From Octopus sinensis (Eukaryota), in NCBI RefSeq assembly GCF_006345805.1, contig NC_043003.1, positions 74,772,001-74,836,000 on the forward strand: DNA of 64,000 bases, read 5' to 3'. Numbering within the stretch: the stretch's first letter is position 1; each line of letters opens with the position of its first letter. The position numbers and the translations under genes were made by a program. Shown one piece after another: positions 6,184 through 58,426 of this stretch. Below the pieces are notes generated by a model, which had not been told where the DNA came from, did not search any database, and saw nothing but the letters and a program-made list of their open reading frames with translations.

Positions 6184-6711
6184 ATATATATATACGGTAG
6201 AGCATTTGTTGTGATAAATATGGAATATATCATGAACCACTTTCAAGCAGATTTGCCTCTGTTTGCCACGAATTACCATATCTTATTGACTGGCGTACGC
6301 CCGTGTTTCAAAAACATTTCATCTTCGCATTTGGTAATGTATTGATTCATTAATCTATAAATATATTAATATCTCCCCTTAGTGAGTATTTACGTCGTAT
6401 ACATTAGCCTCATAAGGTAAGAAGATGTCAAACGTACCGCATTTAACGACCTCACTACCTTGTAATTTCGATTAGATGAAGGCTGCATAGGGAGATCTAT
6501 ATAGCTCCCTATGCATATATGTGACAAGTTTAACTATTCTTCTGTTGCACATTACACTAATGGCTACTTGGAACTATGCATACTCTTTGAAGGACGAAGG
6601 CATTCATCATATCTGTTTTCAATTTAATTAATGATTGTCATAAGTCTGAAATTATGAAATCTTTCAAGGGATTCTTTAGAATCATTTCGACTTCCCTTTC
6701 TGGGAATTCAC

Positions 6712-34123: not shown

Positions 34124-35691
34124 CTAGCAGTATCGCCCGGCGTTGCTCGGGTTTTTAAGGGAAATAACTATTAAACATTTTTAGAGAGTTATAGCCAAAG
34201 AATAGCAAAAAATGCATTCAAAATGGAAAAAAAATAATGGTAATTTTTTTTTTAAATCGTTGACTCATCGTAGACATTTTTAGAGAGTTACTTCCCTTTA
34301 TTAAAAAAATATGCGTTAAAATGGAAAAAAAATAATGGTAATTTTTTTTTTAAATCGTTGACTCATCGTAGACATTTTTAGAGAGTTATAGCCAAAGAAT
34401 AGCAAAAAATGCATTCAAAATGGAAAAAAATAATGGTAATTTTTTTTTTAAATCGTTGACTCATCGTAGACATTTTTAGAGAGTTATAGCCAAAGAATAG
34501 CAAAAAATGCATTCAAAATGGAAAAAAATAATGGTAATTTTTTTTTTAAATCGTTGACTCATCGTAGACATTTTTAGAGAGTTATAGCCAAAGAATAGCA
34601 AAAAATGCATTCAAAATGGAAAAAAATAATGGTAATTTTTTTTTTAAATCGTTGACTCATCGTAGACATTTTTAGAGAGTTATAGCCAAAGAATAGCAAA
34701 AAATGCATTCAAAATGGAAAAAAATAATGGTAATTTTTTTTTTAAATCGTTGACTCATCGTAGACATTTTTAGAGAGTTATAGCCAAAGAATAGCAAAAA
34801 ATGCATTCAAAATGGAAAAAAATAATGGTAATTTTTTTTTTAAATCGTTGACTCATCGTAGACATTTTTAGAGAGTTACTTCCCTTTATTAAAAAAATAT
34901 GCGTTAAAATGGAAAAAAATAATGGTAATTTTTTTTTTAAATCGTTGACTCATCGTAGACATTTTTAGAGAGTTATAGCCAAAGAATAGCAAAAAATGCA
35001 TTCAAAATGGAAAAAAATAATGGTAATTTTTTTTTTAAATCGTTGACTCATCGTAGACATTTTTAGAGAGTTACTTCCCTTTATTAAAAAAATATGCGTT
35101 AAAATGGAAAAAAATAATGGTAATTTTTTTTTTAAATCGTTGACTCATCGTAGACATTTTTAGAGAGTTACTTCCCTTTATTAAAAAAATATGCGTTAAA
35201 ATGGAAAAAAATAATGGTAATTTTTTTTTTAAATCGTTGACTCATCGTAGACATTTTTAGAGAGTTACTTCCCTTTATTAAAAAAATATGCGTTAAAATG
35301 GAAAAAAATAATGGTAATTTTTTTTTTAAATCGTTGACTCATCGTAGACATTTTTAGAGAGTTACTTCCCTTTATTAAAAAAATATGCGTTAAAATGGAA
35401 AAAAATAATGGTAATTTTTTTTTTAAATCGTTGACTCATCGTAGACATTTTTAGAGAGTTATAGCCAAAGAATAGCAAAAAAATGCATTCAAAATGGAAA
35501 AAAATGATGGTAAATTATTTTTAAAATCGTAGACTCATCGTAGACGCGCGCTAATACCCAGAAGGGCTCGATATGAATCACGACTATAAGATACCCGGTT
35601 TTGGTTAAACTGCATTGCAAAATGTGGGAGTATTTAGGAATCTAAATCGGAGAGACAAACACTCACACAACTTCACTTTTATATATAAAGA
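34124..35691 (-). mobile_element. Non-autonomous Helitron nested in the opposite orientation
   Basis: Minus strand begins A|TCTTTATATATAAAAGTG (35691) and ends CCCGAGCAACGCCGGG-CGATACTG-CTAG|T (34124). TC...CTAG termini, subterminal hairpin, A|T insertion site. Confidence 0.85.
34176..35545. repeat. Tandem array of 14 units of about 97-98 bp in two variants
   Basis: Units start CATTTTTAGAGAGTTA at 34176, 34275, 34373, 34471, 34569, 34667, 34765, 34863, 34960, 35058, 35155, 35252, 35349 and 35446. Variant order is ABAAAAABABBBBA. Confidence 0.95.
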
Positions 35692-37299: not shown

Positions 37300-37699
37300 A
37301 TATCGGAACGTACATTGTCACAGTGATTTCTTTCCTTTTCTCTTACATATTTTTTGTCTTCTTTATATTCATTTTTTTTTCTATTTCTTCTCTTATTCAT
37401 TTTCTTCCTTTCTTTCTCTACCTCTTTTTCTACCGTATGAGTTTGTAAATGAACAGTTTGGTGTGTTTGTTTTAATGGCCTGCTAATGTGTACAGTGAGT
37501 TTTTTGCTCCCATATGTCGGAAAGACACTCGGCAGGAGATGGAAACTAAATTGAAAGAGGATACTACTACTACTACTATACTACTACTACTACTACTACT
37601 ACTACTATCACTACTACACGACAATAATAATAATGTTAATGGTAATAATAATAAAAACAACATCAACAAGAGCACTCAGAGAGCGCAAAACTCCGTTAG

Positions 37700-39465
37700 T
37701 GTTCCTTTATTTTGCCACTATGGCCACAACACAGTGGGGACACTACATAGACAGACACAACACCACAGTGGGGACAAAAGCATAAAACAAATCAAAAAGA
37801 GTCATATAAAAATGAAAAATGAAATTGTTGCATGGTCCCCACTCTCGTGCAGTATCATTTGAATGTTTATATAAACTATTTACAATTGTTCTATTATCTT
37901 ATTGTCTTTTATCTCGTGTTTCCTCTTTTTTTTTTAAACAATACTATTTTACTTTTTTCTTTCTTTCTTCAATAAAACAATTTTACTTACATTTCCTTTT
38001 TAATATCTCATGAGAGGTTCTAAACCTTTTAGCTCCACTACAGGTGGCTATTCATCGAACTTCACCATCAATCTTGGCAGGTCAATCCCTTCTCCACACA
38101 TGTCTTTCCATCTGTTTTAGGTGTCCTTGTCAACCACGATGGCCTTCACATTCTCGGAATACATATCCGTGTGAACATTTACTCTTATAATATGTTTACA
38201 CTTTAATAATTTCTTTTCAGTTTCTTTTGCGTACGTCACAAAATTCCATTGAACATTTACTTTTCTTATTTCTTTTCTCTTTTCCTGCTCCGTTTCTGGT
38301 ACTTTTTTCTTTTCTTCCACCAATCCGAACTGTCTTTCCAGTTGCGTGTCTAAATTTTTTTCTTCTGCCGGAACAGCTGATATCTTCATCAATGTCTCTT
38401 TCTTTTACAACTTCTCCTTGAACACTTCAAGTTCCTTTTCTCTTATTTCATCCACCACAAGTTTGTCTTCCTTTCTCCTTCTCTCCTCCTTTTCCATCTC
38501 TTCTTTTTTTTTCTCCTGCTTATCTTTCTTTTTTTAAACACCGTGAACCCCTCCTCCGTTGCTTTCTCCTTTATCTCGACCTGTACCACCTGGTCCATGC
38601 TCTCCTGCTTCTCCGACTGCTATATCTGTTGTTCCCTCTGGGGGCAGCGCGCGATTAGGCGGCGTGCCCTCCACTACCTCTCTCAATTTACGTCATCGGG
38701 CAGCACTGCCTCTTCGAAAATTCTCTTTCGGTCTTCCACTGTTGCTTGAACTGTTAACTCTATTCCATATCCCCAGTAGTTAACACTTTGGGTCATTGTG
38801 GCCTTCAGTATTTTGGCCTCCACATTCATGTCATATATTATGGCTGTCATCAGTCATGCCTCTTTCAACTCTGGCGGCACTTTGCCATCTCGCACTCTGG
38901 CCACACTTTTGCCACAGTACGATGGCAAAAGTACCCAGTCGGACAATCTTATTGCTTCCATGGAGTGCTTAACTGCTTCCACTTCTGATGCAAAATCCAC
39001 CTCCAAGTACCGTACTTTCTTCCTCCTGTTATAAATGTGGTTAGTCATTTTATACTCTTCAAACATTCTTCAATATTCTCTATTGTCGCTATATCTATTT
39101 TCCTTGTTGCTATCTTCATTGTCTTATATATCACCGTTCTTTTCATTAATTTGGTTGCTAGTTCCCCGGGTGGCGTTAATTTCAGTGTGTTTTCGTCTCT
39201 TGACAGCAACCTCTTACATCCCTTCATATTTCGAGGTTCAACCTTTATTTCTCGTACCTCCAGCTTTTCCACGTCTATCCCTTTTCCAGTTGAAGATGCA
39301 TAACTGTGGCCACCTGCTGGCGTTTTCTCCATTTTCCCACAATGGGAAAACAGCAATTCAAAATAACACTAGCGGCAATTTGAGCAGTAACATTCGATGA
39401 AACAAATATTTAACACTATGACTGACGTCTAACATGACAAACAACAACTCATACCGCGTTCAGAC
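37700..39465 (-). mobile_element. Gag/ORF1-only retroelement, unit 1 (full length, decayed)
   Basis: Broken ORF: MEKTPAGGHSYASSTGK...KRTVIYKT...EVDFASEVEAVKHS..LLPSYCGKSVARVRDGKVPPE...YWGYGIELTVQ...K/E-rich...IIRVNV..VKAIVV...IDLPRLMVKFDE*PPVVELKGLEPLMRY*. About 300-nt 3' UTR ending in AATAAA (37706-37711). No RT motifs seen. Confidence 0.75.
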
Positions 39466-39495
39466 AACCCTCTGCAAAGGAACACCAACGTCGTG

Positions 39496-41517
39496 ATTTC
39501 TTTTATTAAACATAAGGCCTCTACAAAGATAGGACAATACAAAAACAGACAAAACAATGCAATGGGGGGACATAAAATCACATAGCGAATGAAATTATGT
39601 ATACAATGAAAGTTGAGGATAGAATGACTTACCTGCCTCCCATAAGCGGGTAGTTCCATTTTACTGGTTTTAAATAAAATTCTACTAATAGTTCACACAT
39701 CCTGTCTTGCATGTATTGGTTTTCCATTTATTCTTTAAAAAAAAACACAAAGTAGCTATTTACACAATATATTCCAATAAATCTTAGAATGCCACCACCG
39801 GCGGCAACTCATCGTAACGAAACTGTACCATTGTCACATCTATAGTTTCCTCAAACAACACCTTCAATCTATCTCCTGTTTTTTGTTTGTATGTTTTCTC
39901 TAGCAAAACTTCTTTCATACTTTCATTGTACTCTGTGGGTGCCAATTTCACTCTCATTACGTTCTTCACCTTTGCAATCTTTTTTCTATATCTACTCTTT
40001 CTGTGTATTGTATCATCGTTCTTAGATTTTTCCTTTTTCGTGTCACTCTCTGCTTTCTTTCACCAATCTCTACTGTTACTGGTATCCCTTCCTCTGTTTG
40101 TCTCTCATTCTCTCTATGATATTCCTCCTTCTTCTGTACTCTCTCCTTCTTGCTAGATGTTGGTAACTGTCTCTACGTTTGCTCCTCACTTATATTTGTT
40201 GACCTTCCAGTTTTTTCTGGTCGTTTGTTTTTTCATGTTTTCCACTCTGCGTCTCCTCTCCCCTGTGCCTGTGTTACTTTTTCTTCCTCTTGACCACTGT
40301 ATATTATTCTTCCATTTTTACCTCCTCTACGTTTAAACCCTCTTCTTCTTGATGTTCCTTCTCTATCCCCTCCTCTTCGTGATTCTGGTGGCAGCCATCC
40401 TCCATAACACAGAGGACGACGTTCAAATTTTGAAGATTGCAAGAACTACGGATGTGAACTACAGGGGGATATGGAGTGGAGGTATCGGTTCATAAAAGCT
40501 TACCAGACCTCCACAAAATTGCAGAAGAATTTTTAGTTTTCCGTGTTTATGTTAGGTCTCGATTTGTATTGTCATTACGTGTTGCACTTGTCGAACGAAC
40601 CTTTTCTGTATAGCCTTATTATGGGTAATAAAGAAATATTTGTCGTGAATGTTGTATCGTGTCATTTGATAGCCCGCTGCGTTTGTGTTGTTTTCTCTAC
40701 ATGTGACTGTTGTTACTGCTACATTTTTACTGTTAAACTGTTATATTACTGAATTGTCGGATTTATTGTATTTATTGTTGCTGGAATTTTATTTTCTTCC
40801 CCTGGCTGTCTCCCTCCATTCTCAATATTTGCTGGTACATCTTGACACTTAGCTTTCATGTGTCCCCTTACTTCACATAGAAAGCATACGGGAAGTATTC
40901 CTTTGAGTACAATTCTCAACCTCATCTCGTCTGATAGTACCAATACTTCTGCAATTTTGTGGAGGTCTGGTACGCTTATATGAACCGATAACTCCAGTCC
41001 ATATCCCCTGTAGCTCACCTCCATAGTTCTTACAATCTTCAAAAATTTAGTATCGCCCTCTGTGTTATAGAGGATTGCTGTCACCACCCAAGCCTCGTCA
41101 ATTTCTGGGGGCATTCTACCAATCCTTACTCTGACTGCACGTTTTTTTCTGTTTTTTCTATAACTTCTTTAGGCGGCGTCAGCCTCAGTGTGTCTCCCCC
41201 CATTCTCAATACGTGTTGGTACTTCTTGAAATTAGCTTCGTTTAGTTCAATTTCTCTAACTTGCAGTATATCTGCTGTTTGCCAGTTACTGCAGCGTAAC
41301 TGCCTGCTGGTACTAGTTTACCTTCCATAATATTATCCACAACCTCACCCATAAATGGGGAAGAAAATAAAATTCCAGCAACAATAAATACATTAAATCC
41401 GACGATTCAGCAATATAACAGTTTGACAATAACATTGTTGCAATAAGAAGACTCACATGGAGCGAAAGCATTTCAAACGCAGCAGGCAATCAAATGACAC
41501 GATACAACATTCACGAC
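39496..41517 (-). mobile_element. Gag/ORF1-only retroelement, unit 2 (contains an inverted segment at 40386-40802)
   Basis: MGEVVDNIMEGKLVPAGSYAAVTGK (ATG 41352); PPEIDEAWVVTAILYN..YRGYGLELSVH..LRIVLKG; CCHC knuckle CFLCEVRGHMKAKC (40845-40886); C-terminal VMRVKL..IDVTMVQFRYDELPPVVAF; AATAAA at 39502-39507. Confidence 0.8.
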
Positions 41518-41520
41518 AAA

Positions 41521-42299
41521 TATTTCTTTATTACCCATAATAAGGCTATACAAAACGAGATCTAACATAAACTGGTAAAACTAAAAGTTAATAAAAGATG
41601 ACACACGTAAAAAATTTAAGAAACGAATATCATGAAAATAATGAAAATGAGACGTAATGCCCACTCGACCTCCAAAGTCGAGTAGTTACATTGCTACATT
41701 ATTTTATCACAGTCTTTTCTCTTATTCAAAGTTCACATTATTTTCCTTCCCCACCCAAAAAAGTCCACAATATTTTATATTTTGAAATTTTTCTCATTCA
41801 TCAGTTATGTTTTCATATTCCAACACAGACGGCGGGACGTCTCATAATCAAATTGATTTTATTTCTTTTATCACTTCTCCAAGTTCTCCAAATGTATCTC
41901 TAACTCCCGTGTAACTGTCTTTACGTATCATAATCCCTATGTCGTCCGTTTCCTATTCTCCTCTGGGCAGTTCCATCCTCACCACTCTTTTCCATTTTGT
42001 AATAGTTTTTTTTTCATTTCTATACTCTTTTTATAAACAAGTTGTATTCCCTTATACTTGCATTCTTCTTCCTTTGATGCTACTTTGGCCGCTTGCACAC
42101 TTTTAGATTTAAATTCCTTCTCACCTTTCTGTGTCTCCATCTTAGTTTTCTTAGACTTTTTTCTTCCTTTTGCCTTTTTTCTTTTGGGGCTCATAAACTT
42201 ATCACTCCCACCTTTCACTTCACTCCTTTCCTTTTTGTTGCTGGCTCGCTCACCATCACTTTTATATTCTTTCTTTTCTTTATCTTGTTTCTCCTCTTT
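41521..42299 (-). mobile_element. Gag/ORF1-only retroelement, unit 3 (5'-truncated)
   Basis: K/E-rich linker then YKGIQLVYKKSIEMKKKL, matching the start of the C-terminal domain. The 3' end GGGTAATAAAGAAATA abuts the 5' end of unit 2. Confidence 0.65.
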
Positions 42300-42605
42300 C
42301 TCATATAGCGTAAATTCCGCCAAGGGAAACTGAGCCTTCATATGGCCCCGTGCCCCATAAATGTAGCAAGTACGTTGAAAGACTACGTAAGATAGTAATC
42401 ATGTACATTAAAATAAATATAACAAATAATCCAGAATCTTTGTGCGGTGCAGTGTCGATACCCAAATCTAATATGTTCGTTCCAGTCTCGAGGTCAAACA
42501 TCCTTGAATGTTTTATCCGAATCCATCCTGCGGTTCTGGAGATATCTTAAGCACGGACAAATAAACACAACTGTAAATACCTCCGCCTTCGCGAAGGCGG
42601 AGGTA
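42300..42605 (+). mobile_element. Short non-autonomous element with a 3' palindrome (Helentron/HINE-like); its left tip is at 37664-37695
   Basis: Perfect 28-bp palindrome TACCTCCGCCTTCG-CGAAGGCGGAGGTA (42578-42605). TCCGCC near the left end is complementary to GGCGGA in the palindrome. The left end repeats 37675-37695. Confidence 0.5.
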
Positions 42606-42647
42606 ATAATATTAATAACAAAAACAACAACAACAACAATGATAATA

Positions 42648-43211
42648 ACGGTTTCGAAATTTGGCGGAAGGCCACAAATTTTAGGGGGAGGAGCAGTTTT
42701 AAACTGGTACATATTTGATCGAATTTGTCAGGATGAAATGCAAATTTGACCTTTACTGAACTTGAATTTAGAGCGTAAAGACGGACTAAAAGGAGAAGAG
42801 ATTTTTTACCGCTGTACTAACGACTCTGTCACCTCTGCTCCTGTCATCGAAAGTACAGATTCCGCCGTGGTAGACATTGCCTTAATCCTTTCGGGCTCGA
42901 TAATATAAGTGCCAGTTAAACTCTTGGATCGATACGATCGACTTGTCCTATTCCTCAAAATTGCTGTCCTTTTGCCAAAATTTGAAGGCATTGAAAAAAT
43001 GCAGTGAGTTGGCAGAATCGTTAACAAGCCTGGTAAAATTCTTAGTGGTATTTCCTCGGTTTAAATGTACCGAATCTAAATATAACCGAGGTCGACTTTG
43101 CCGTTTATCCTTTCGGGATAGATAAATTAAGTATCAGTGAAACACTGGGGTCGATGTAATAGGCTAGTCTCTTTCTCTAAAATGTCAGGCCCTGTGATTT
43201 TAGTAGAAAGG

Positions 43212-43245
<34 letters not shown>
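42648..43245. mobile_element. Cluster of three SINE family C copies (42648-42842 minus, 42850-42990 plus 3' half, 43001-43245 plus with (ATT)n tail)
   Basis: Each aligns with 26348-26562. The last is best preserved (GAGTTGGCAGAATCGTTA...CCGAGGTCGACTTTGCC...ACTGGGGTCGATGTAAT...TAGTAGAAAGGATTATT). Confidence 0.75.
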
Positions 43246-43246
<1 letters not shown>

Positions 43247-44145
43247 AACAGCAGAAAATAAAGTTTAAACCAGCTTTCATTTATGAGGCTCTGTCTCACT
43301 GAACATTGCACTGACTTTCAGGCTTCTGCATCGATTTATTTTCATCCTTGATTCTTCAAGGACAATGCATCGTACAACTATGATGTACCTTAACAGAAAT
43401 TAGGATGTAATGGCAATGCAAGGCTTATAACAAGAATAAATCGCATGATTTGAAAAGTGATGGTGAACGTTTTGTTTCCCTCCATCAAACTTGCAAATAA
43501 AACCGAAAATTGACTTATAATGAGTAGGCAAATAAGTAACATTGGTACATCATTTAATTAACGTAGATTAATTATATTTTTTTACCTACTGATAATGTTT
43601 GTTTTGTATTCTATGAAGTTGTAGGACATATGTGAAAACTAGATGTTACAAAAAGAGAATTACATGATGATGGATAGAAGTAAGCGTAAAAGTACATGAA
43701 ATAATCTATATATTGCTCATGAATTAACTATCGAAGTAAAAACTAAATGGCAACAACATTTGTATTATTAATTACACAGAAGTAGAGAGCTAATAGTGCA
43801 ATAATTATGGAGATTTTGTGTTTTTTGAAAATTATTTTCCGGATTACGCAGGTATTCGAACATTATCTCCTTCAATGCCCTTTCCACATCCGCCTGGATG
43901 GCCGATCTCTGGCTGCTTTGTGTTTATGGAAATGCATTTGTACGTCACTCTTTATTTGTTTGTCCCTGCCAACAATTCGTGGGTTGGAATGATATCCACT
44001 CGCAATTTCTTTTATTTATTCAGCTGTCCCAGCCGGACACATGTCTTTCTGAAGCAGATTCATGCCGAAGAATTTCTTACTTATCGCCACCGTTGCAGCG
44101 AGGCATTGTTGGTAGTATTACTGTTGTTAATTAGAATTTTGCTAT

Positions 44146-45285
44146 GTTGCTTCATTAGCTACAAGGGCCCAAATATAGAGGGGAACAAACAAGGGCACCA
44201 CAGAGGGGACGATACATAGAACGAATATGGTCAGATGGTTATACAATAATGGGGTTATGAATGGCTGCATGCGCCCCTCATCACATGAGTTACCATTAAT
44301 CTTTTTAAACTTTCCGTTTTTATCCTGTATTTAACTAACAATTAATTATCGTCTATTTGAACCGTTATATGTTGTCTAAAATTGTTCTTCTATTTTCCGA
44401 TATTATTAAACATAACCTAAAACGCTTACTCTTTCTTTTTTTCTTTTTTTCCTCCTTTTTCTTTTTTCTTTTCTTTTTTCCTGTCGATTTGACATACTTG
44501 TTTACTTTTTAGTAATATTTCATTAGTGGGTCAATTTTTACTAAATCCACTACTGGTGGCAATTCTTTGAATTCCATCCTTACTCCTGGTGGGTCAATAT
44601 TATCTCGACACATTTCATGCAGTCTCTTATAACTTACTTCTTCAATCACTATTGCCTTCATATCCTCTGCATATATGTACGCTGGCACCTTTACTCTTAC
44701 TATTTGGTTGAACTAGAGTATTTTCTTTTCTGTTTCTATATTCTTCTGGTAGGTTACGTAACACCACACATCATTTCCTTTTATTTTCTTTCCTTTATTT
44801 TGGCTTTTCTGTTCTCACTCCCCACCTCCACACTAAACAGTCTCTCCAATTCTGCTCCTGCCAGCTGAATTTCCGAATCCTTTTCTACCAGAGCAGCAAG
44901 TATTTTTACTTTTAACAACGTTTTCTTTTTACTTTGATTGTAATCATGGGACTGCTAATACCTGCTGCTGTTGGCATTGGCATATGCCATTTCAATGCGG
45001 GGAATTCACCTTCGCAGTGTATAATGCCGCTGTTAGTATCTGCTGTTAGACTCCTGCCAGTTACTGCAGCGTAGCTGCCCGGTGCTGGTTTACGTTCCAT
45101 AATATTATTCACAACTTCACCCATAAATGTGGAAGATAAACAAAAATTTGAGCAGCAATTCAGTAATATAATAATTTAGTAAGATAACAGTGTAACAATA
45201 ACAATGTTACAGTAACAGACTCACATGAAGCGAACACACACCAAGTGTAACAGGGAGTAAAATGACTCGACACGACACTAACGAC
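44146..45285 (-). mobile_element. Gag/ORF1-only retroelement, unit 4 (both ends present, middle deleted)
   Basis: 5' UTR homologous to 41357-41517; MGEVVNNIMERKPAPGSYAAVTGR (ATG 45124); C-terminal RDNIDPPGVRMEFKELPPVVDLVKIDPLMKYY; 3' end GTCCCC...CCCTTGTAGCTAATGAAG. Confidence 0.75.
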
Positions 45286-45318
45286 AACGCCAACGTCCTC
45301 TCAACGATTAGCCGGAGA

Positions 45319-45625
45319 CGACTTGGAAATAGAGGTCGAACGTGGAGTCTAAAAACAGAAATATTTCCTCTCATAGTGGGCGCATTATGTATGATAAAAA
45401 TATTTAGACAAATACATAACAAAAACACCAGGACTAACAAATATATATATAACATACGGAAAATAGCGCTACTAGGCACTGCACACATCCTACGTAAAAC
45501 ACTTTCGATATAGTAACAATAAGACCATCACAGCAAACCACAGCACATACCCAAAGCACAAATGTGTGCTCGCTAGTGAAGTGAAAACACGTTATAAAAA
45601 TAAAACTACTGAACAATAATAATAT
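45319..45625 (+). mobile_element. R4/Dong-like LINE 3' end
   Basis: DLEIEVE..WSLKTEIFPLIVGALCMIK...IYNIRKIALLGTAHILRKTLSI*, then a short 3' UTR and an (AAT)n tail. Confidence 0.85.
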
Positions 45626-45780
45626 CATTTTGGCACAATGCTAGCAATTCCGGGTCAAGGAGTAAGTCGATAAAATCCACCAAATTGTTCAACTGGCACT
45701 TACTTCTATCGACACGGAAACGAGGAAAACTAAAGTTGACATCAGCGGAATAATAACTCAGAACATTAGGACGGATGAAT
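45626..45780 (-). mobile_element. SINE family C fragment
   Basis: Reverse complement GTTCTGAGTTATTATTCCGCTGATGTCAACTTT...GTCGATAGAAGTAAGTGCCAGTTGA...ATCGACTTA...AATTGCTAGCATTGTGCCAAAAT. Confidence 0.65.
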
Positions 45781-46659
45781 GATAATGATAATAATAATCA
45801 CAACAATAACATGAACAGTCGGATATTTCACGAAGCAGCTTTAGTTCTTGATATATGTAAGGGAAGTAAAATTTTAGTTACGCAAACGCACTGACATTCA
45901 CTATAAGGAAATTTACGATTGTCTCAAACTTCTATATGAAACTAATATGCCTGTTTTTCACATACACTGTGTACTACCTCTGAAAATACACTATTAACGC
46001 TGTAGTATATTACTACTCAATAGAAAAGACCCATGTATCTCCCAATCAATATATCATCTGTCAAATGTTTACATATTGTCATCAGCATGATCTGTTTATT
46101 TCTCCCTAAATAAGTTGATGTGAACTTCTCCCCAGAAGCCAACTGAGATTCACGGGTAATATGGGTGAAAAATATTAAGATGGATTTTTCAAAGTTAATC
46201 TGAAAGATTTCTATTTTGTACTATTATGATTTCTTTTCTCATGACGAAAATATGGTTACGCAATTTAGTTCGAAAATGTTAGAAATATTAAGTATAGTAA
46301 ATTTTCGCTGACGCGCGTAAACGTTGATGTCAGTGCTATAAGAAATATAATTTTTTTTATGGTGCATGTATTTCGTGTTTACTTTTATATCATATGAGCT
46401 ATGTAGTGAAGTAAAGCGTTAGTAATGTGACTATTCCAATTTCATTTTAAACCAAATTGCTTGGTATCGCTTTAACATCATTTAACTTATTCAATATATA
46501 CTTCCTAAAAGTTGTAGCACATCACTCAGATGGACTCACATAAAACTAGACGCACATTTATCTCTCTTCCTTATTTCGTTGTATATAACTATATGCGCTT
46601 CTCGCTTGTGATGCAGCCTTGTTTGTGTATCTGTGCGTGTGCCTGTATATATATATGTA

Positions 46660-46695
<36 letters not shown>

Positions 46696-46859
46696 CATTC
46701 ATATATATATATATATATATATATATAAGATGAACCAAACTTGAACGAACAGCAAAGGAATGCGCTTAATTCGATATGATATGTAATATTAAATTTAATA
46801 CAAAATTAAAGTATACATCTAAAATAAGCTATTTATTATATCAATGCAATAGAAGGGCA

Positions 46860-47870
46860 CCGAACTTTTTGTCAATGTGTGTATCAAAATCACAGGAGAT
46901 TTTATCAAAGATTGTGCTTAAGTTTCAGTTCAAAATATTTTCTAATATCGCCTAATACTGCAGCATACATTATTGGATCAACATTTTGTGCATTGATTTT
47001 TTAAAATTTATCCACGGGGTAATTCTTGAAATCACCCATGATCAAAGATTCCTCTTCTAAAGTTAGTACTCCAATACTTCCCCTCAGAAAAACAATCCAT
47101 TGAGTAAAGCCAGTTGTATTTAAGTCCTAATCAAAAGGACTAAGTCGTAAAAATGCTTCATCAAGATCAAGATACTTCTTGCCAACTGTTGAGCAATATA
47201 GGAGGGGTATTTTAGAGGAGACAGAGGTCATAGGAGGAAGGGCTTTCTTGTAACTATTGTACAACTCGAATTATTAGTATTTCAAGATACTTTCCCCCTG
47301 TGACTATTCTACAAAAATAGTTTGATATTAAAGACCCATACTTTAAATATGACACGGATAATAATATCAGACTGGTTTACTTGCTGCTATAATGTTAAAT
47401 GCATCTTCTTATACAAGTAAGCATTATAAACTTAAATACACGTTCTCATCCCGTAATACTGCTTGATGTGTCATTAAATTTCATTTGATTTCCTCCAACA
47501 GGTCATGAACTGACAATAGATGATAAAAGTTTAGTCTCATAAACATCATAATTCGAATTGTGAGTTTCTCAAATATTAATTTTTCTTCATTTCTTCTGCA
47601 TCTTTTCTAGTGGACATTTTAAGGCTGGAACAAAAATCTTCATAATCATCTTGTGTATTATTCTTCGCGTAAACTAATTTGTCTTGACCAACTTGCATGT
47701 AAGCAGCCAGTTTCACATTTACTATGAATCTGGTAAATTGAATGTCTGCATGTGGCATTAATATCAAGAAATACAACCTCTTATATTGTCTAAGAGGTAG
47801 AGGATTTAAGAATTTCAATCCCCAGCAAAACCATTTTTCTTGCATCAGTATTAAATTCTTTTACAATATG
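46860..47870 (-). pseudogene. Possible heavily decayed DNA-transposase (hAT-like) remnant
   Basis: Non-repetitive, coding-like sequence with many stops. PVDKF*KI...LGDIRKYFEL..LIKSPVILIH loosely resembles the hAT C-terminal dimerisation region. Weak. Confidence 0.25.
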
Positions 47871-48213
47871 TGTTCACTGAAGTATATGAGAAACAATAAA
47901 ATGATGCATTTAAATCCATAGGTTAAATGTAAATTTAAAATGATTTAGAGTAGTTGTTCTAATATAGCTAAAAACCTAAGAGTTCTAGCTTAAAAACTCC
48001 AGTTATAATATACCACACCCTATTCAACCGCCTGTCCATATACCCTCGGCTCACATACATACAAATACCTATACGATCCATTTTTATTTTCGAGTGCACA
48101 TCTAAATTCTTTAGATACACCAACCCTCACAAACACACCCACACACACGCATACAAATAAACGCGTGCACACACTCACACACATCATACACAACACACAC
48201 ACAAACACACACT

Positions 48214-48974
48214 ATTTCTTTATTACCCACTAGGGGCGACACTGAGGGGACACTACAAGACATGGGGATATAGAACATTATAATTAAATTTATGAAAGAT
48301 GAATTGTTACATGAAAAAATGATAATATGAAAGCGATGCTAAAGGCCCCATCCGTTAGCATCACTTACCTGTCCTTTGGTTTTCACCGTCACTTGAATGT
48401 TCATTCCCAATACGAATACCTTCCATATCCATTCTTACTCCGAAATACTCCTCCATATTTTCCACGAATTCATCGCTCATTCTTCTATCTTTCACCTCCC
48501 AATTCTCCCTTTCACACCTCAACATAAACTCATCTATTCTCTTCTTTTCAATCACAGTATACCTAGTCTCACCAACTTCATACCATTTATACTCTTCCAT
48601 TAGCCTTTTAACTTCTTTCCGTTCTGTCATAGTACAAATGTTCGGCCTGGGTTCGATTTCAATCTCTTGTCTGTCTGTATTATTTTTTTTCTTTTGTTTT
48701 CTTGTTGGAGGGGAGCGAGTGGGTTCACTGTCTGCAGGGATAGGGTGGGACTCAGAGGGTGTGGGTGGTTTTGGGGTGGATTGATGTTCTATATTATTTT
48801 CTTTTCCTCTTATTCTTCTCTTCCTCTTCTTCCCAAATTCTTTCCATTCCTGTGTATTTTCTTCCTCTTCCACTGCCCTCCACCCACACTCTCATGATCA
48901 CGTCTCCCAATCTGATGCTTTCCGCCAGGTCCACCAGTACATCGTTCTCTGCCTGCACGTTCAGTTCCACTGTT
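48214..48974 (-). mobile_element. Gag/ORF1-only retroelement, unit 5 (5'-truncated, 21-bp TSD)
   Basis: VELNVQAENDVLVDLAESIRLGDVIMRVWVEG is homologous to units 1 and 2. Open 170-aa C-terminal frame 48361-48873. 3' end GTAGTGTCCCC...GGGTAATAAAGAAAT. Identical flanks ACACACACACAAACACACACT at 48193-48213 and 48975-48995. Confidence 0.8.
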
Positions 48975-56075: not shown

Positions 56076-57259
56076 GTTTCCAGTCCCGTTATTAATATCC
56101 TGATAATGATGGTGATGATATAACAACAACAACAACAACATCTTTATAAGATGAAAATCCTACCGTGATCAGTATTTTCTTGTACCGATAAAACACGTAC
56201 CTATCAAATACTAGAGTGGATTTAATCAATTCCACATAACCTCCACCCCAAAATGACCTTTTTTCATTTCTGCTTTATTTGTTACACCAATATTGGTGAT
56301 ATTGACAAAAGTGAGACCAATAAATGAATTGATGCTAACTATGTTTCAGAACCGCATAATTATACTATATGCCCTACAATTGTTTCTGATAAGTTTCTAT
56401 TACTAATACTGCATTCTTTTCTATCTATTTTCAGATGCAAATAAGATAACATTTGAACGAATCAATTATACCAGCCGAGAAGAAGGACCAGTTTGAAGAT
56501 ATTGTAAACCATTCAAACAAAGACAGAGCAGGTCAATAAAATATATCTACACACCAAATAAATAAACAAACAAAAATAGATGATGAAATGATACATTCAG
56601 CGAAAGAGATTTAAATCTTTGCAGCTATTGAAGGATACTAACAGAATATATTTTTGAGAATTCTACGAAGATACGATATTCTTAACGAAGTTTTACTTCA
56701 TTGCATACAACTGAGCGATGTCCTGTGGGAAGAATATTAATATATAGTTTTTGATCATATATTTTTTAGCATCGTCATCTTTCACTCCTTTTTCACGTCT
56801 CAATTGGAGTTTGAGATAGATTCAATTTCAGTGACTATAAATTAGTATTAGTATGCTTTATCCTCTTATCCCATACAATATAAACAGAAAAAGAAATCCA
56901 GTAGTCTACCAAGACATCCTCAGTAATGGTAACTGCAAGCATATGTTTCTTTGTTAAAATTTTTGCATCACTTACACTTTTTGACAAAGTTTTATAGATA
57001 ATGAAAGTGAAATGCTCTCCCCGATTTGGTGATAAAAACACAGCAGACTTAATACGTGTATTATGGAATACTGAGAAACGGGAAAAATAACATATATAAA
57101 TCTTTCTATATCTATCTATTGAACAACATTTATATGTATATATATATTTATATATATATATATATATATGAACAAAAGTAAATATTTATTATGAAGTACC
57201 TTCAAGTGTCACACCTGGGAACATTTGTTTGTTCTCCAGGAATAATTTTACGCAGAGCC

Positions 57260-58426
57260 ATGGCGCTGTGTTCAGTATCGGGTATTTTTGGTTCAATTCT
57301 ATTACTTTCACTGAGCTTTAGTTTCCCAGATGAACTCTCTGAACATCCGCTTCATTCTTTTGACAATAACGTACGCAGAAAATCTACAGGGAATTCACAT
57401 TTTGGTGGCTTGCATTCAGTAAGGAAATTTACACGTGTTGCTATGTCAAGCAACGATTACGATGCACGCGCCAATCATTTCCAGCAACAGCATTCAAATG
57501 AAACTAATTCCACAGTATTTCAACGTTCACGCCTAAAGAGTGGTGTGTTTCAGCAAAGTATAAATTTGCTAGAAAAAGATGAAGTTAACGTCACAACTGA
57601 AGTGGGTATAGTGCCTAAACACTTTCAACAGTATAATAGTGCATTTCTAGTTGTAATTGTATGTAGTCATCCAGAAAGACTGGAGTACCGCCAAGCAATA
57701 CGGGAAACATGGGGTTCATCTAGGGGTCAAGAATTTCATGTATTATTTCTAACTGGTAAACACGAAGATCCTTACTGGAATGCATTGATGGATAAAGAAA
57801 ATGCTCTCCACGGTGACATCTTACAAGTGGATGTCATTGATAGTTACAGAAATTTATCTTTGAAGGTCATTGGTGGCCTATGTTGGATAACAGACAGTTT
57901 CCAAAGTATCGATTACGTCATGAAAACAGACGATGACGTATACATAAATGTTTGGTATTTATTAAAACTTTTGAGAGAAAAAGTAATAAGTCAACGGCAA
58001 ATACTTGGGGCTTTGTCGATAATGTCCCCTGTAAAAAGAGACCTGAGGGATCCGTGGGGTGTGCGATTCAGTGAGTTTGCCCCAAAGACGTACCCTCCCT
58101 ATGTATCTGGAGGAGCTTACGTCATGTCACAGAAGGCAGGTAAGAAATTATGTGTGGAAAAATGGAAAAGACAATCGCCTTTTATTCATTTAGAAGACGT
58201 TTATGTAACAGGAATTTTAGCACAGGCAACTGGCATAAGCCATGTGGCACATCCAGGCTTTTCTTTTTGGACAAGTAAAAAGGCTAAGGCTGCCGATATT
58301 GCCAACAACAAAAGAGTGTCAAGTGTTAATATGACACCCGATCAAATTTACAAACTTCACAGACAATCGAACGCTTTACTTGTAAGTACCACATCATCGG
58401 TAAATTCTAAGAAAGTCGAACGCTGA
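57260..58426 (+). CDS. Beta-1,3-galactosyltransferase-like glycosyltransferase (GT31 / Galactosyl_T family), type II membrane protein, about 388 aa
   Basis: Intact ORF, open from 57191. N-terminal hydrophobic anchor; GT31 motifs RQAIRETWG, E..HGDILQ.D..DSYRNLSLK, YVMKTDDDVYIN (DxD), YPPYVSGGAYVMS and LEDVYVTG. ATG 57260 is in GCCATGG context just after a splice-acceptor-like TTTGTTCTCCAG (57239). AATAAA at 58492. Confidence 0.93.
   Translation: MALCSVSGIFGSILLLSLSFSFPDELSEHPLHSFDNNVRRKSTGNSHFGGLHSVRKFTRVAMSSNDYDARANHFQQQHSNETNSTVFQRSRLKSGVFQQSINLLEKDEVNVTTEVGIVPKHFQQYNSAFLVVIVCSHPERLEYRQAIRETWGSSRGQEFHVLFLTGKHEDPYWNALMDKENALHGDILQVDVIDSYRNLSLKVIGGLCWITDSFQSIDYVMKTDDDVYINVWYLLKLLREKVISQRQILGALSIMSPVKRDLRDPWGVRFSEFAPKTYPPYVSGGAYVMSQKAGKKLCVEKWKRQSPFIHLEDVYVTGILAQATGISHVAHPGFSFWTSKKAKAADIANNKRVSSVNMTPDQIYKLHRQSNALLVSTTSSVNSKKVER

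What the first reader, a model, noticed from the sequence alone, without database searches (positions are those of the whole stretch)
37700..48974. Family of Gag/ORF1-only retroelements (no RT) forming a head-to-tail array
Seen: five minus-strand copies (37700-39465, 39496-41517, 41521-42299, 44146-45285, 48214-48974) are mutually homologous at protein level but strongly diverged. The reconstructed unit is about 1.8-2 kb: 5' GTC start, about 150-nt UTR, one ORF (SYA motif, RRM-like block, CX2CX4HX4C knuckle, K/E-rich linker, C-terminal domain), 150-370-nt 3' UTR and an AATAAAG(A)AAT-type end with no poly(A). In all five the ORF is followed by the 3' end with no room for an endonuclease/RT ORF. 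Units 3, 2 and 1 are joined tail to head. Established: SYA + RRM + CCHC is the layout of L1/Tx1-type ORF1 proteins, and ORF1/Gag-only non-LTR elements are known (HAL1, Drosophila HeT-A, the latter in head-to-tail arrays). Inference: an old, diversified, protein-coding but non-autonomous retroposon lineage that borrows an RT in trans. I do not recognise it as described in cephalopods.
Basis: partly seen in the sequence, partly recalled or inferred. Interest (0 to 1): 0.85.

Follow-up and report, generated by a model that had tools for sequence, protein, structure and literature searches.

The report
ORF1-only parasites of octopus Tx1 LINEs
This octopus genome carries many short jumping genes that encode only an RNA-binding protein, stack head-to-tail at fixed sites inside other repeats, and likely borrow the copying enzyme of full-length Tx1-type LINEs, with which some of them share their last 28-40 bases.

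Summary
Largely confirmed, with corrections. The five pieces are decayed copies of 1.3-1.9 kb elements that encode only an L1/Tx1-type ORF1 (two RRMs, CCHC knuckle). None of 90 related ORF1 copies is followed by an endonuclease. The genome holds intact two-ORF Tx1-like LINEs with a homologous ORF1. A young ORF1-only subfamily (52 near-full-length matches at 90-100%; 9 of 30 with intact ORF) shares only its last ~40 nt and its target duplication with a LINE beside it in mixed arrays, while their ORF1s are 28-37% identical. Arrays come from repeated site-specific insertion: units 3-2-1 sit inside one Helentron-like repeat, at a site duplicated as ~15 bp (176 exact empty sites). ORF1 evolved under purifying selection (dN/dS 0.22-0.29). 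Corrections: only unit 2 keeps a full knuckle, unit 2 holds an inverted duplication, unit 4 is a composite, and the units come from several subfamilies, probably two origins. No helper was found for units 1, 2 and 4. This is a new, likely Tx1-derived, variant of the HAL1/HeT-A/Ag-Sponge kind; seven paper searches showed no description, Repbase/Dfam unchecked. The scan earlier noted Tx1 arrays at Penelope tails in another genome.

The parts
37665..37695 (-). 3' remnant of the host Helentron-like (HINE-type) repeat: part of the 3' subterminal repeat and the terminal hairpin
   Evidence: same end follows filled and empty sites
37697..39480 (-). Unit 1: near full-length ORF1-only element (L034/L048 subfamily), broken ORF, knuckle deleted
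   Evidence: 79% over 1.6 kb to L048; tree
39481..39495 (-). Target-site duplicate between units 2 and 1 (degenerate copy of the HINE site)
39496..41520 (-). Unit 2: ORF1-only element (L032 clade) with intact RRM2 + CCHC (40749-41168), about 280 nt deleted in RRM1
40386..40855 (+). Inverted, scrambled duplicate of unit 2's 5' part and the unit 3/2 junction, inserted in unit 2
   Evidence: blastn 85-89%
41521..42390 (-). Unit 3: 5'-truncated ORF1-only element (L187 subfamily, sister to the young L088/L090 group); degenerate knuckle near 42325-42368
42400..42609 (-). 5' part of the host Helentron-like repeat (palindromic 5' subterminal repeat), truncated against unit 3
   Evidence: matches 48 loci at 77-81%
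44146..45284 (-). Unit 4: composite of a unit-2-type 5' end and the 3' part of an L034-related subfamily; no RRM or knuckle
45285..45320 (-). HINE target fragment ending in the 15-bp site at the 5' junction of unit 4
   Evidence: exact pattern hit L126
48214..48974 (-). Unit 5: 5'-truncated element of a second lineage (L095 type), knuckle deleted; 28-nt tail identical to the L083/L095 LINE
   Evidence: 89% to L095; trees

Best explanation
These are non-autonomous retroposons that encode only an L1/Tx1-type ORF1 protein and are likely copied in trans by the endonuclease and reverse transcriptase of co-resident two-ORF Tx1-like LINEs, which likely recognise their short 3' tail and cut a preferred site inside other repeats. 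Each insertion duplicates 11-15 bp of the target and so restores the site; later insertions of the same or other subfamilies, or of the LINE itself, build head-to-tail arrays. Shown: ORF1-only structure, ORF1 homology to the LINEs, target duplications and empty sites, mixed arrays, tail identity with a neighbouring LINE for two lineages, purifying selection on ORF1. Inferred: target-primed reverse transcription by the LINE's ORF2p; that the element's own ORF1p acts on its own RNA (coating it and helping it reach ORF2p), which is why the ORF is kept; that units 1, 2 and 4 used a helper now extinct or not sampled. The window's copies are dead.
For: 0 of 90 ORF1 copies in 79 loci have an EN within 1.5 kb downstream; a near-identical rule flagged the LINE loci. 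Intact LINE ORF2s of 1128-1140 aa carry Exo_endo_phos, RVT_1 and zf-RVT behind an ORF1 27-39% identical to the short elements. AlphaFold model of an intact short ORF1 matches tandem-RRM proteins (IMP3 RRM12, E 7e-6); Atlas feature hit to ZCCHC3 RNA-binding domains at 0.90. 176 exact empty HINE sites; one 1.2 kb insertion has the 15-bp site at both ends (L107/L131); 22 of 30 unit-2-type tails are followed by it. Young subfamily: 52 near-full-length matches at 90-100% on many contigs, 9 of 30 with an ORF of 450 aa or more, with locus-specific duplications. Seven of seven fetched downstream neighbours are two-ORF LINEs with the same tail and a matching target duplicate (chosen from the 8 of 16 whose 3' flank matched a LINE 5' end). 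The only DNA match between short element and LINE is the last 55 nt including the duplicate, at 96%; ORF1s are 28-37% identical. dN/dS 0.22-0.29 at dS 0.5-2.5; shared variants by codon position 99/71/274 against private 158/140/103.
Against: No helper found for the clade holding units 1, 2 and 4: their tails share at most 11 nt with eight sampled LINE tails, within the shuffle range; 0 of 30 exact unit-2-type tails and 0 of 14 further HINE junctions have ORF2 upstream; a candidate from L225 proved to be a microsatellite-targeting LINE with another tail. In L092 a short-clade ORF1 start is joined to a unit-5-type piece and then an ORF2 start, so the unit-5 lineage may have, or have had, autonomous members. 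13 of 90 copies showed neither C-domain nor tail, and 34 a C-domain without a recognised tail. 11 of the 90 rows are one segmental duplicate. LINEs were sampled only from the top zf-RVT hits. Trees are quick and unrooted. No transposition or expression was shown.
Confidence: 0.85

Rival explanations
1. The short elements are recent, repeated deletion products of autonomous LINEs (dead-on-arrival or briefly amplified), and the selection signal on ORF1 was inherited from autonomous ancestors that I did not sample.
For: LINE sampling was limited to the top 150 of 24042 zf-RVT candidates. The unit-5 lineage sits among the LINE ORF1s and one chimera links it to ORF2.
Against: 0 of 90 copies, 0 of 30 tails and 0 of 14 junctions of the main clade carry ORF2 in register. 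The young subfamily's own partner has an ORF1 only 28-37% identical and shares no DNA beyond the tail. The short clades lie behind a branch with 99-100% SH-aLRT support and include O. bimaculoides proteins.
Confidence: 0.08
2. ORF1 was captured by the Helentron-like repeat and spread and arrayed by rolling-circle transposition or unequal recombination, with no reverse transcription.
For: Units 3-2-1 lie inside a HINE-type repeat; some young arrays are homogeneous with a period near 1780 bp, and recombination may have added units there. One group of copies did spread by segmental duplication.
Against: Target duplications at each junction and empty sites; other subfamilies sit in unrelated targets (hammerhead-like motif, SINE-like head); arrays mix distant subfamilies and full LINEs; many copies are 5'-truncated.
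Confidence: 0.04
3. They are Gag-only LTR elements (TR-GAG or LARD type) whose AATAAAG ends are LTRs.
For: A short sequence recurs at both ends, and CCHC knuckles occur in Gag.
Against: The repeat is 11-15 bp and belongs to the target; the protein is homologous to ORF1 of EN+RT non-LTR LINEs in the same genome and folds as tandem RRMs.
Confidence: 0.02

Closest known systems
HAL1 (half-L1) of mammals
   Same: Non-autonomous L1 derivative that encodes only ORF1p, with several independent origins (PMC5753468, passages read).
   Different: Here the parent group is Tx1-like, target-specific and without poly(A); the elements form arrays with their helper, and in the young subfamily share only about 40 nt with it. 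The primary HAL1 paper was not held.
HeT-A of Drosophila (and Ag-Sponge of Anopheles)
   Same: ORF1/Gag-only element in mixed head-to-tail arrays with RT-bearing partners, ORF under negative selection, RT source inferred (PMC5537684, passages); listed with HAL1 and Ag-Sponge as ORF1-present bipartite non-autonomous LINEs from the Jockey, L1 and CR1 clades (PMC5786205, passage).
   Different: HeT-A adds to chromosome ends, has a long 3' UTR and poly(A). These elements are interstitial, have 150-400 nt 3' UTRs and 11-15 bp target duplications. Tx1 is not among the parent clades named in that passage.
Tx1-clade LINEs (Xenopus Tx1L, Keno, Kibi, Koshi) and crocodilian SINEU-3
   Same: Preference for sites in other repeats; SINEU-3 inserts in Mariner-N4 and forms tandems sandwiching a target duplication, explained as sequential insertion (PMC4494074, passages).
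   Different: Tx1L has two ORFs; SINEU encodes no protein. The elements here encode ORF1 only.
Octopus vulgaris 'L1-Tx1' repeat families
   Same: 80 families, 56 Mb, 13 recently active (PMC13282606, parts 1-2 and supplement table row); likely includes the helpers and perhaps these short elements under the same label.
   Different: The text and supplement that I read have no mention of ORF1-only structure, targets or arrays; the library on Zenodo was not seen.

Membership tests
ORF1-present non-autonomous LINE (HAL1/HeT-A/Ag-Sponge kind) | Encodes an ORF1-type protein homologous to that of an autonomous LINE | tested here: met
ORF1-present non-autonomous LINE (HAL1/HeT-A/Ag-Sponge kind) | No EN/RT between ORF1 and the 3' end in independent copies | tested here: met
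   0 of 90; 30 young copies of about 1.75 kb
ORF1-present non-autonomous LINE (HAL1/HeT-A/Ag-Sponge kind) | Amplified as a unit by retrotransposition (target duplications, 5' truncation, dispersed copies) | tested here: met
ORF1-present non-autonomous LINE (HAL1/HeT-A/Ag-Sponge kind) | 3' end shared with an autonomous partner | tested here: inconclusive
   met for the L088 and unit-5 lineages (38 and 28 nt), weak for unit 3 (16-17 nt), not found for units 1, 2, 4
ORF1-present non-autonomous LINE (HAL1/HeT-A/Ag-Sponge kind) | Mobilisation in trans shown by assay | not testable with these tools
   needs a cell assay
Tx1 clade (helpers) | Two ORFs; ORF2 = APE-type EN + RT + C-terminal zinc domain | tested here: met
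Tx1 clade (helpers) | Target-sequence preference with duplications | tested here: met
Tx1 clade (helpers) | RT phylogeny places it in Tx1 rather than L1 | tested here: inconclusive
   no tree with reference clades; one weak named hit, 'Transposon TX1 149 kDa protein', 26%
HAL1 proper | Derived from mammalian L1 | tested here: not met
   homologues found only in Octopus
HeT-A | Telomere-restricted arrays with poly(A) | tested here: not met
   interstitial copies on many contigs, no poly(A)
LTR/Gag-only elements | Long terminal repeats | tested here: not met
   only 11-15 bp target duplicates
HINE (host repeat) | Short non-coding repeat with 12-15 bp subterminal inverted repeats and a 3' palindrome | tested here: met
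   seen in 2 of 5 empty elements fetched against the description in PMC4067079; the other 3 gave no 5' motif match
HINE (host repeat) | Autonomous Rep/Helicase partner with the same ends | not tested
   none sought

The most novel reading that the evidence does not exclude
The ORF1-only elements are a long-lived satellite lineage with its own protein, older than its present helpers, that survives by swapping a ~40-nt tail to track whichever Tx1 LINE is active and so inherits that LINE's target. Its divergent ORF1p would be kept to capture, or interfere with, the helper's ORF2p. Octopus would then hold a radiation of protein-coding LINE parasites with a living, intact parasite-helper pair.
Probability: 0.5. 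Interest if true: 0.72.

Novelty: new variant of a known kind. Interest (0 to 1): 0.55.

Why it matters
For HeT-A and HAL1 the RT donor and the reason for keeping ORF1 are inferred, not shown. Here a young ORF1-only subfamily with intact ORFs lies beside intact helper LINEs, shares only a short tail and a defined target with them, and has an ORF1 about one third identical. That pair allows a direct test of trans-mobilisation, of tail recognition and of what a parasite's own ORF1p does. It also means that octopus 'L1-Tx1' annotations and some predicted genes (O. vulgaris proteins 94-96% identical to the short ORF1) likely include non-autonomous elements.

Tried and rejected
Pfam finds only zf-CCHC in the ORF1s. 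A Penelope RT abutting one copy (L034) was taken as a nested insertion: seen once, and it cuts the element. L225 was followed as a possible helper for unit 2; its family is a two-ORF LINE in (TTA)/(TCA) microsatellites with another tail. The apparent young burst on small contigs is one segmental duplicate. Rfam at gathering thresholds found no hammerhead in 12 loci, only U1, and single-strand folding did not give the hammerhead fold, so that label rests on recalled motifs. Sequencing runs: no RNA holder listed; contigs of four runs covered L035 and showed joints that skip the array, which says nothing on expression. The window's array was not checked against reads. The careful tree did not finish; no outgroup was obtained, so trees are unrooted. 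One C-domain query (unit 1) was out of frame and uninformative. No complex prediction was run. Earlier scan notes by place and by sequence: none.
Full report
Setting. The window is G000:C7:74772001-74836000 in a 2.72 Gb genome. Protein homologues of the elements are named only from Octopus bimaculoides and O. vulgaris, up to 96% identical, so this is an octopus.

Observation. The five pieces are real and homologous. No ORF2 similarity lies in the window. Several details need correcting. Only unit 2 has a full knuckle (40749-41168). Unit 1 lost it by deletion, unit 5 lacks it, and unit 3 has a relic upstream of the stated boundary. Unit 2 contains an inverted, scrambled duplicate of its own 5' part and of the unit 3/2 junction, 85-89% identical; at the rate quoted in PMC13282606 (0.0036 per million years) that is very roughly 15-20 million years, an inference. 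Unit 4 joins a unit-2-type 5' end to the 3' part of another subfamily. All window copies are broken.

The protein. The unit-2 piece has 7780 first-look candidates in the genome, 150 scored; this is not a copy number and includes LINE ORF1s. Natural copies with long open frames give the layout SYA motif, two RRM-like blocks, CCHC, K/E-rich linker, small C-terminal domain. An AlphaFold model of an intact 466-aa copy (mean pLDDT 60.6, about 70-87 over residues 41-260) matches tandem-RRM proteins, best IMP3 RRM12 at E 7e-6. The Atlas gives CCHC clusters at 0.92 and ZCCHC3 RNA-binding domains at 0.90, a lead only; that ZCCHC3 derives from an L1/Tx1-type ORF1 is recalled.

No ORF2 in cis. I examined 79 loci around places. 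Of 91 ORF1 copies one had too short a flank; of the other 90, none has an endonuclease within 1.5 kb. Forty show C-domain and tail (knuckle to tail 456-1471 nt, median 856), 34 the C-domain only, 3 the tail only, 13 neither; two are followed by C-terminal ORF2 fragments of truncated LINEs. Eleven rows are one segmental duplicate, leaving about 80 independent. A near-identical rule flagged the LINE loci.

Autonomous relatives. A zf-RVT search (24042 candidates, 150 scored) led to 20 fetched regions with two-ORF elements. Three ORF2s tested (1128-1140 aa) carry Exo_endo_phos, RVT_1 and zf-RVT. Their ORF1s are 27-39% identical to the short elements. They end in the same AATAAAGAAAT-type signal without poly(A), have duplicated targets and form arrays. 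One lies directly before a U1 gene. Assignment to Tx1 rather than L1 rests on this behaviour and one weak named hit, not on a tree.

Targets and arrays. The unit-1/2 subfamilies insert at one site near the 3' end of a ~370-bp repeat with subterminal inverted repeats and a 3' hairpin, as described for HINEs (PMC4067079, passages, 5' motif seen in 2 of 5). The empty site occurs 176 times exactly, control 0. Of 30 examined variants of the 5' junction, five are filled, including unit 4. One 1.2 kb insertion has the 15-bp site at both ends (L107/L131). Of 30 examined unit-2-type tails (31 found), 22 are followed by the site within four mismatches. In the window the host's 5' part lies at 42400-42609 and its 3' remnant at 37665-37695, so units 3-2-1 are stacked in one host copy. 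Other subfamilies use other targets. Sequential insertion at a restored site was proposed for SINEU-3 tandems (PMC4494074, passages).

A living pair. The short element in L088 belongs to a young subfamily: 731 candidates, 30 scored, 52 near-full-length matches at 90-100% including itself, in arrays with a period near 1780 bp. Nine of 30 have an ORF of 450 aa or more, and the duplications differ between loci. Eight of 16 examined 3' flanks matched a LINE 5' end; seven of these were fetched and all are two-ORF LINEs with the same tail and a matching target duplicate. Between one short element (1779 nt) and its neighbour the only blastn match is the last 55 nt, duplicate included, at 96%; ORF1s are 28-37% identical in three comparisons. 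Window unit 3 shares the 3' UTR hairpin with this subfamily (74% over 89 nt) and its full-length relative L187 groups with it. Unit 5 shares 28 terminal nt with the L083/L095 LINE, against at most 12 in 300 shuffles, and its relative sits behind such a LINE in L095.

History and selection. Quick unrooted trees separate the main short clade plus the unit-3 group from the LINE ORF1s (99-100% SH-aLRT); the unit-5 lineage lies among the LINEs, so ORF2 was probably lost at least twice. O. bimaculoides proteins nest in the main clade; their genomic structure was not seen. Among 52 de-duplicated copies (21 rows dropped as duplicates or chimeras; 1326 non-independent pairs, 382 saturated) median dN/dS is 0.50-0.59 at dS under 0.3 and 0.22-0.29 at dS 0.5-2.5. 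In 36 rows, shared variants fall 99/71/274 on codon positions and private ones 158/140/103. So ORF1 was constrained along source lineages and decays after insertion.

Against. No helper was found for units 1, 2 and 4. One chimera joins short-type ORF1 pieces to an ORF2 start (L092). LINE sampling favoured young families. Transcription and mobility are untested.

Literature. Seven searches showed no description of Tx1-derived ORF1-only elements or of these octopus elements. I read passages of PMC5753468, PMC4494074, PMC5786205, PMC5537684, PMC4067079, PMC8967140 and PMC11203168, and parts 1-2 of 3 plus a supplement search of PMC13282606. PMC5786205 names HeT-A (Jockey), HAL1 (L1) and Ag-Sponge (CR1) as the ORF1-present kind. 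Subscription papers, Repbase, Dfam and the Zenodo library were not seen and may hold these families.

Verdict. A real and well-supported new variant of a known kind: target-specific, array-forming ORF1-only parasites of Tx1-like LINEs, with an identifiable intact helper for a sister subfamily of unit 3. Interest 0.55.

Noticed in passing
L035:1440-1460 and 6600-6680; L033; L036: One ORF1-only subfamily inserts right before a CTGATGA...GAAAC motif with flanking complementary arms, like a minimal hammerhead of Penelope-type ends (label recalled; no Rfam hit at gathering score). L084 and L086 LINEs have similar flanks.
   Followed up: partly
L071:2228-2391: An L084-type LINE tail is followed at once by a complete U1 snRNA sequence (Rfam 125 bits), suggesting insertion at the U1 5' end.
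   Followed up: partly
L026, L152, L173, L249 3' flanks: Several short elements end at the head of an abundant SINE-like repeat (identity recalled), a third recurrent target.
   Followed up: no
L265-L279: An older two-ORF LINE family of the same group sits in (TTA)n/(TCA)n microsatellites at both ends.
   Followed up: partly
L092:2798-3900: Three-part chimera: short-clade ORF1 start, unit-5-type ORF1 piece, then ORF2 start; possibly serial template switching among co-packaged RNAs.
   Followed up: partly
L033:3801-4177: An inverted 3' part of the element lies before its 5' end, next to an inverted ORF2 fragment.
   Followed up: no
L149, L153, L156, L157, L162, L166, L169-L171, L174, L099: A segment of 4 kb or more holding one broken ORF1-only copy is duplicated at least 11 times at 90-99.9% identity.
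   Followed up: partly
window 45320-45500 (+): A fragment resembling the C-terminus of an R4/Dong-type LINE (motif recalled) replaces the host repeat upstream of unit 4.
   Followed up: no
window 57182-58426 (+): Single-exon 413-aa galactosyltransferase-family ORF (PF01762, E 5.5e-42).
   Followed up: no
window 34175-35545: 14 copies of a 98-bp tandem repeat at 93% identity, possibly the internal array of another Helentron-like element.
   Followed up: no
L034:2600-4517 (-): A long Penelope-like RT frame (571 aa) cuts into an ORF1-only copy.
   Followed up: partly
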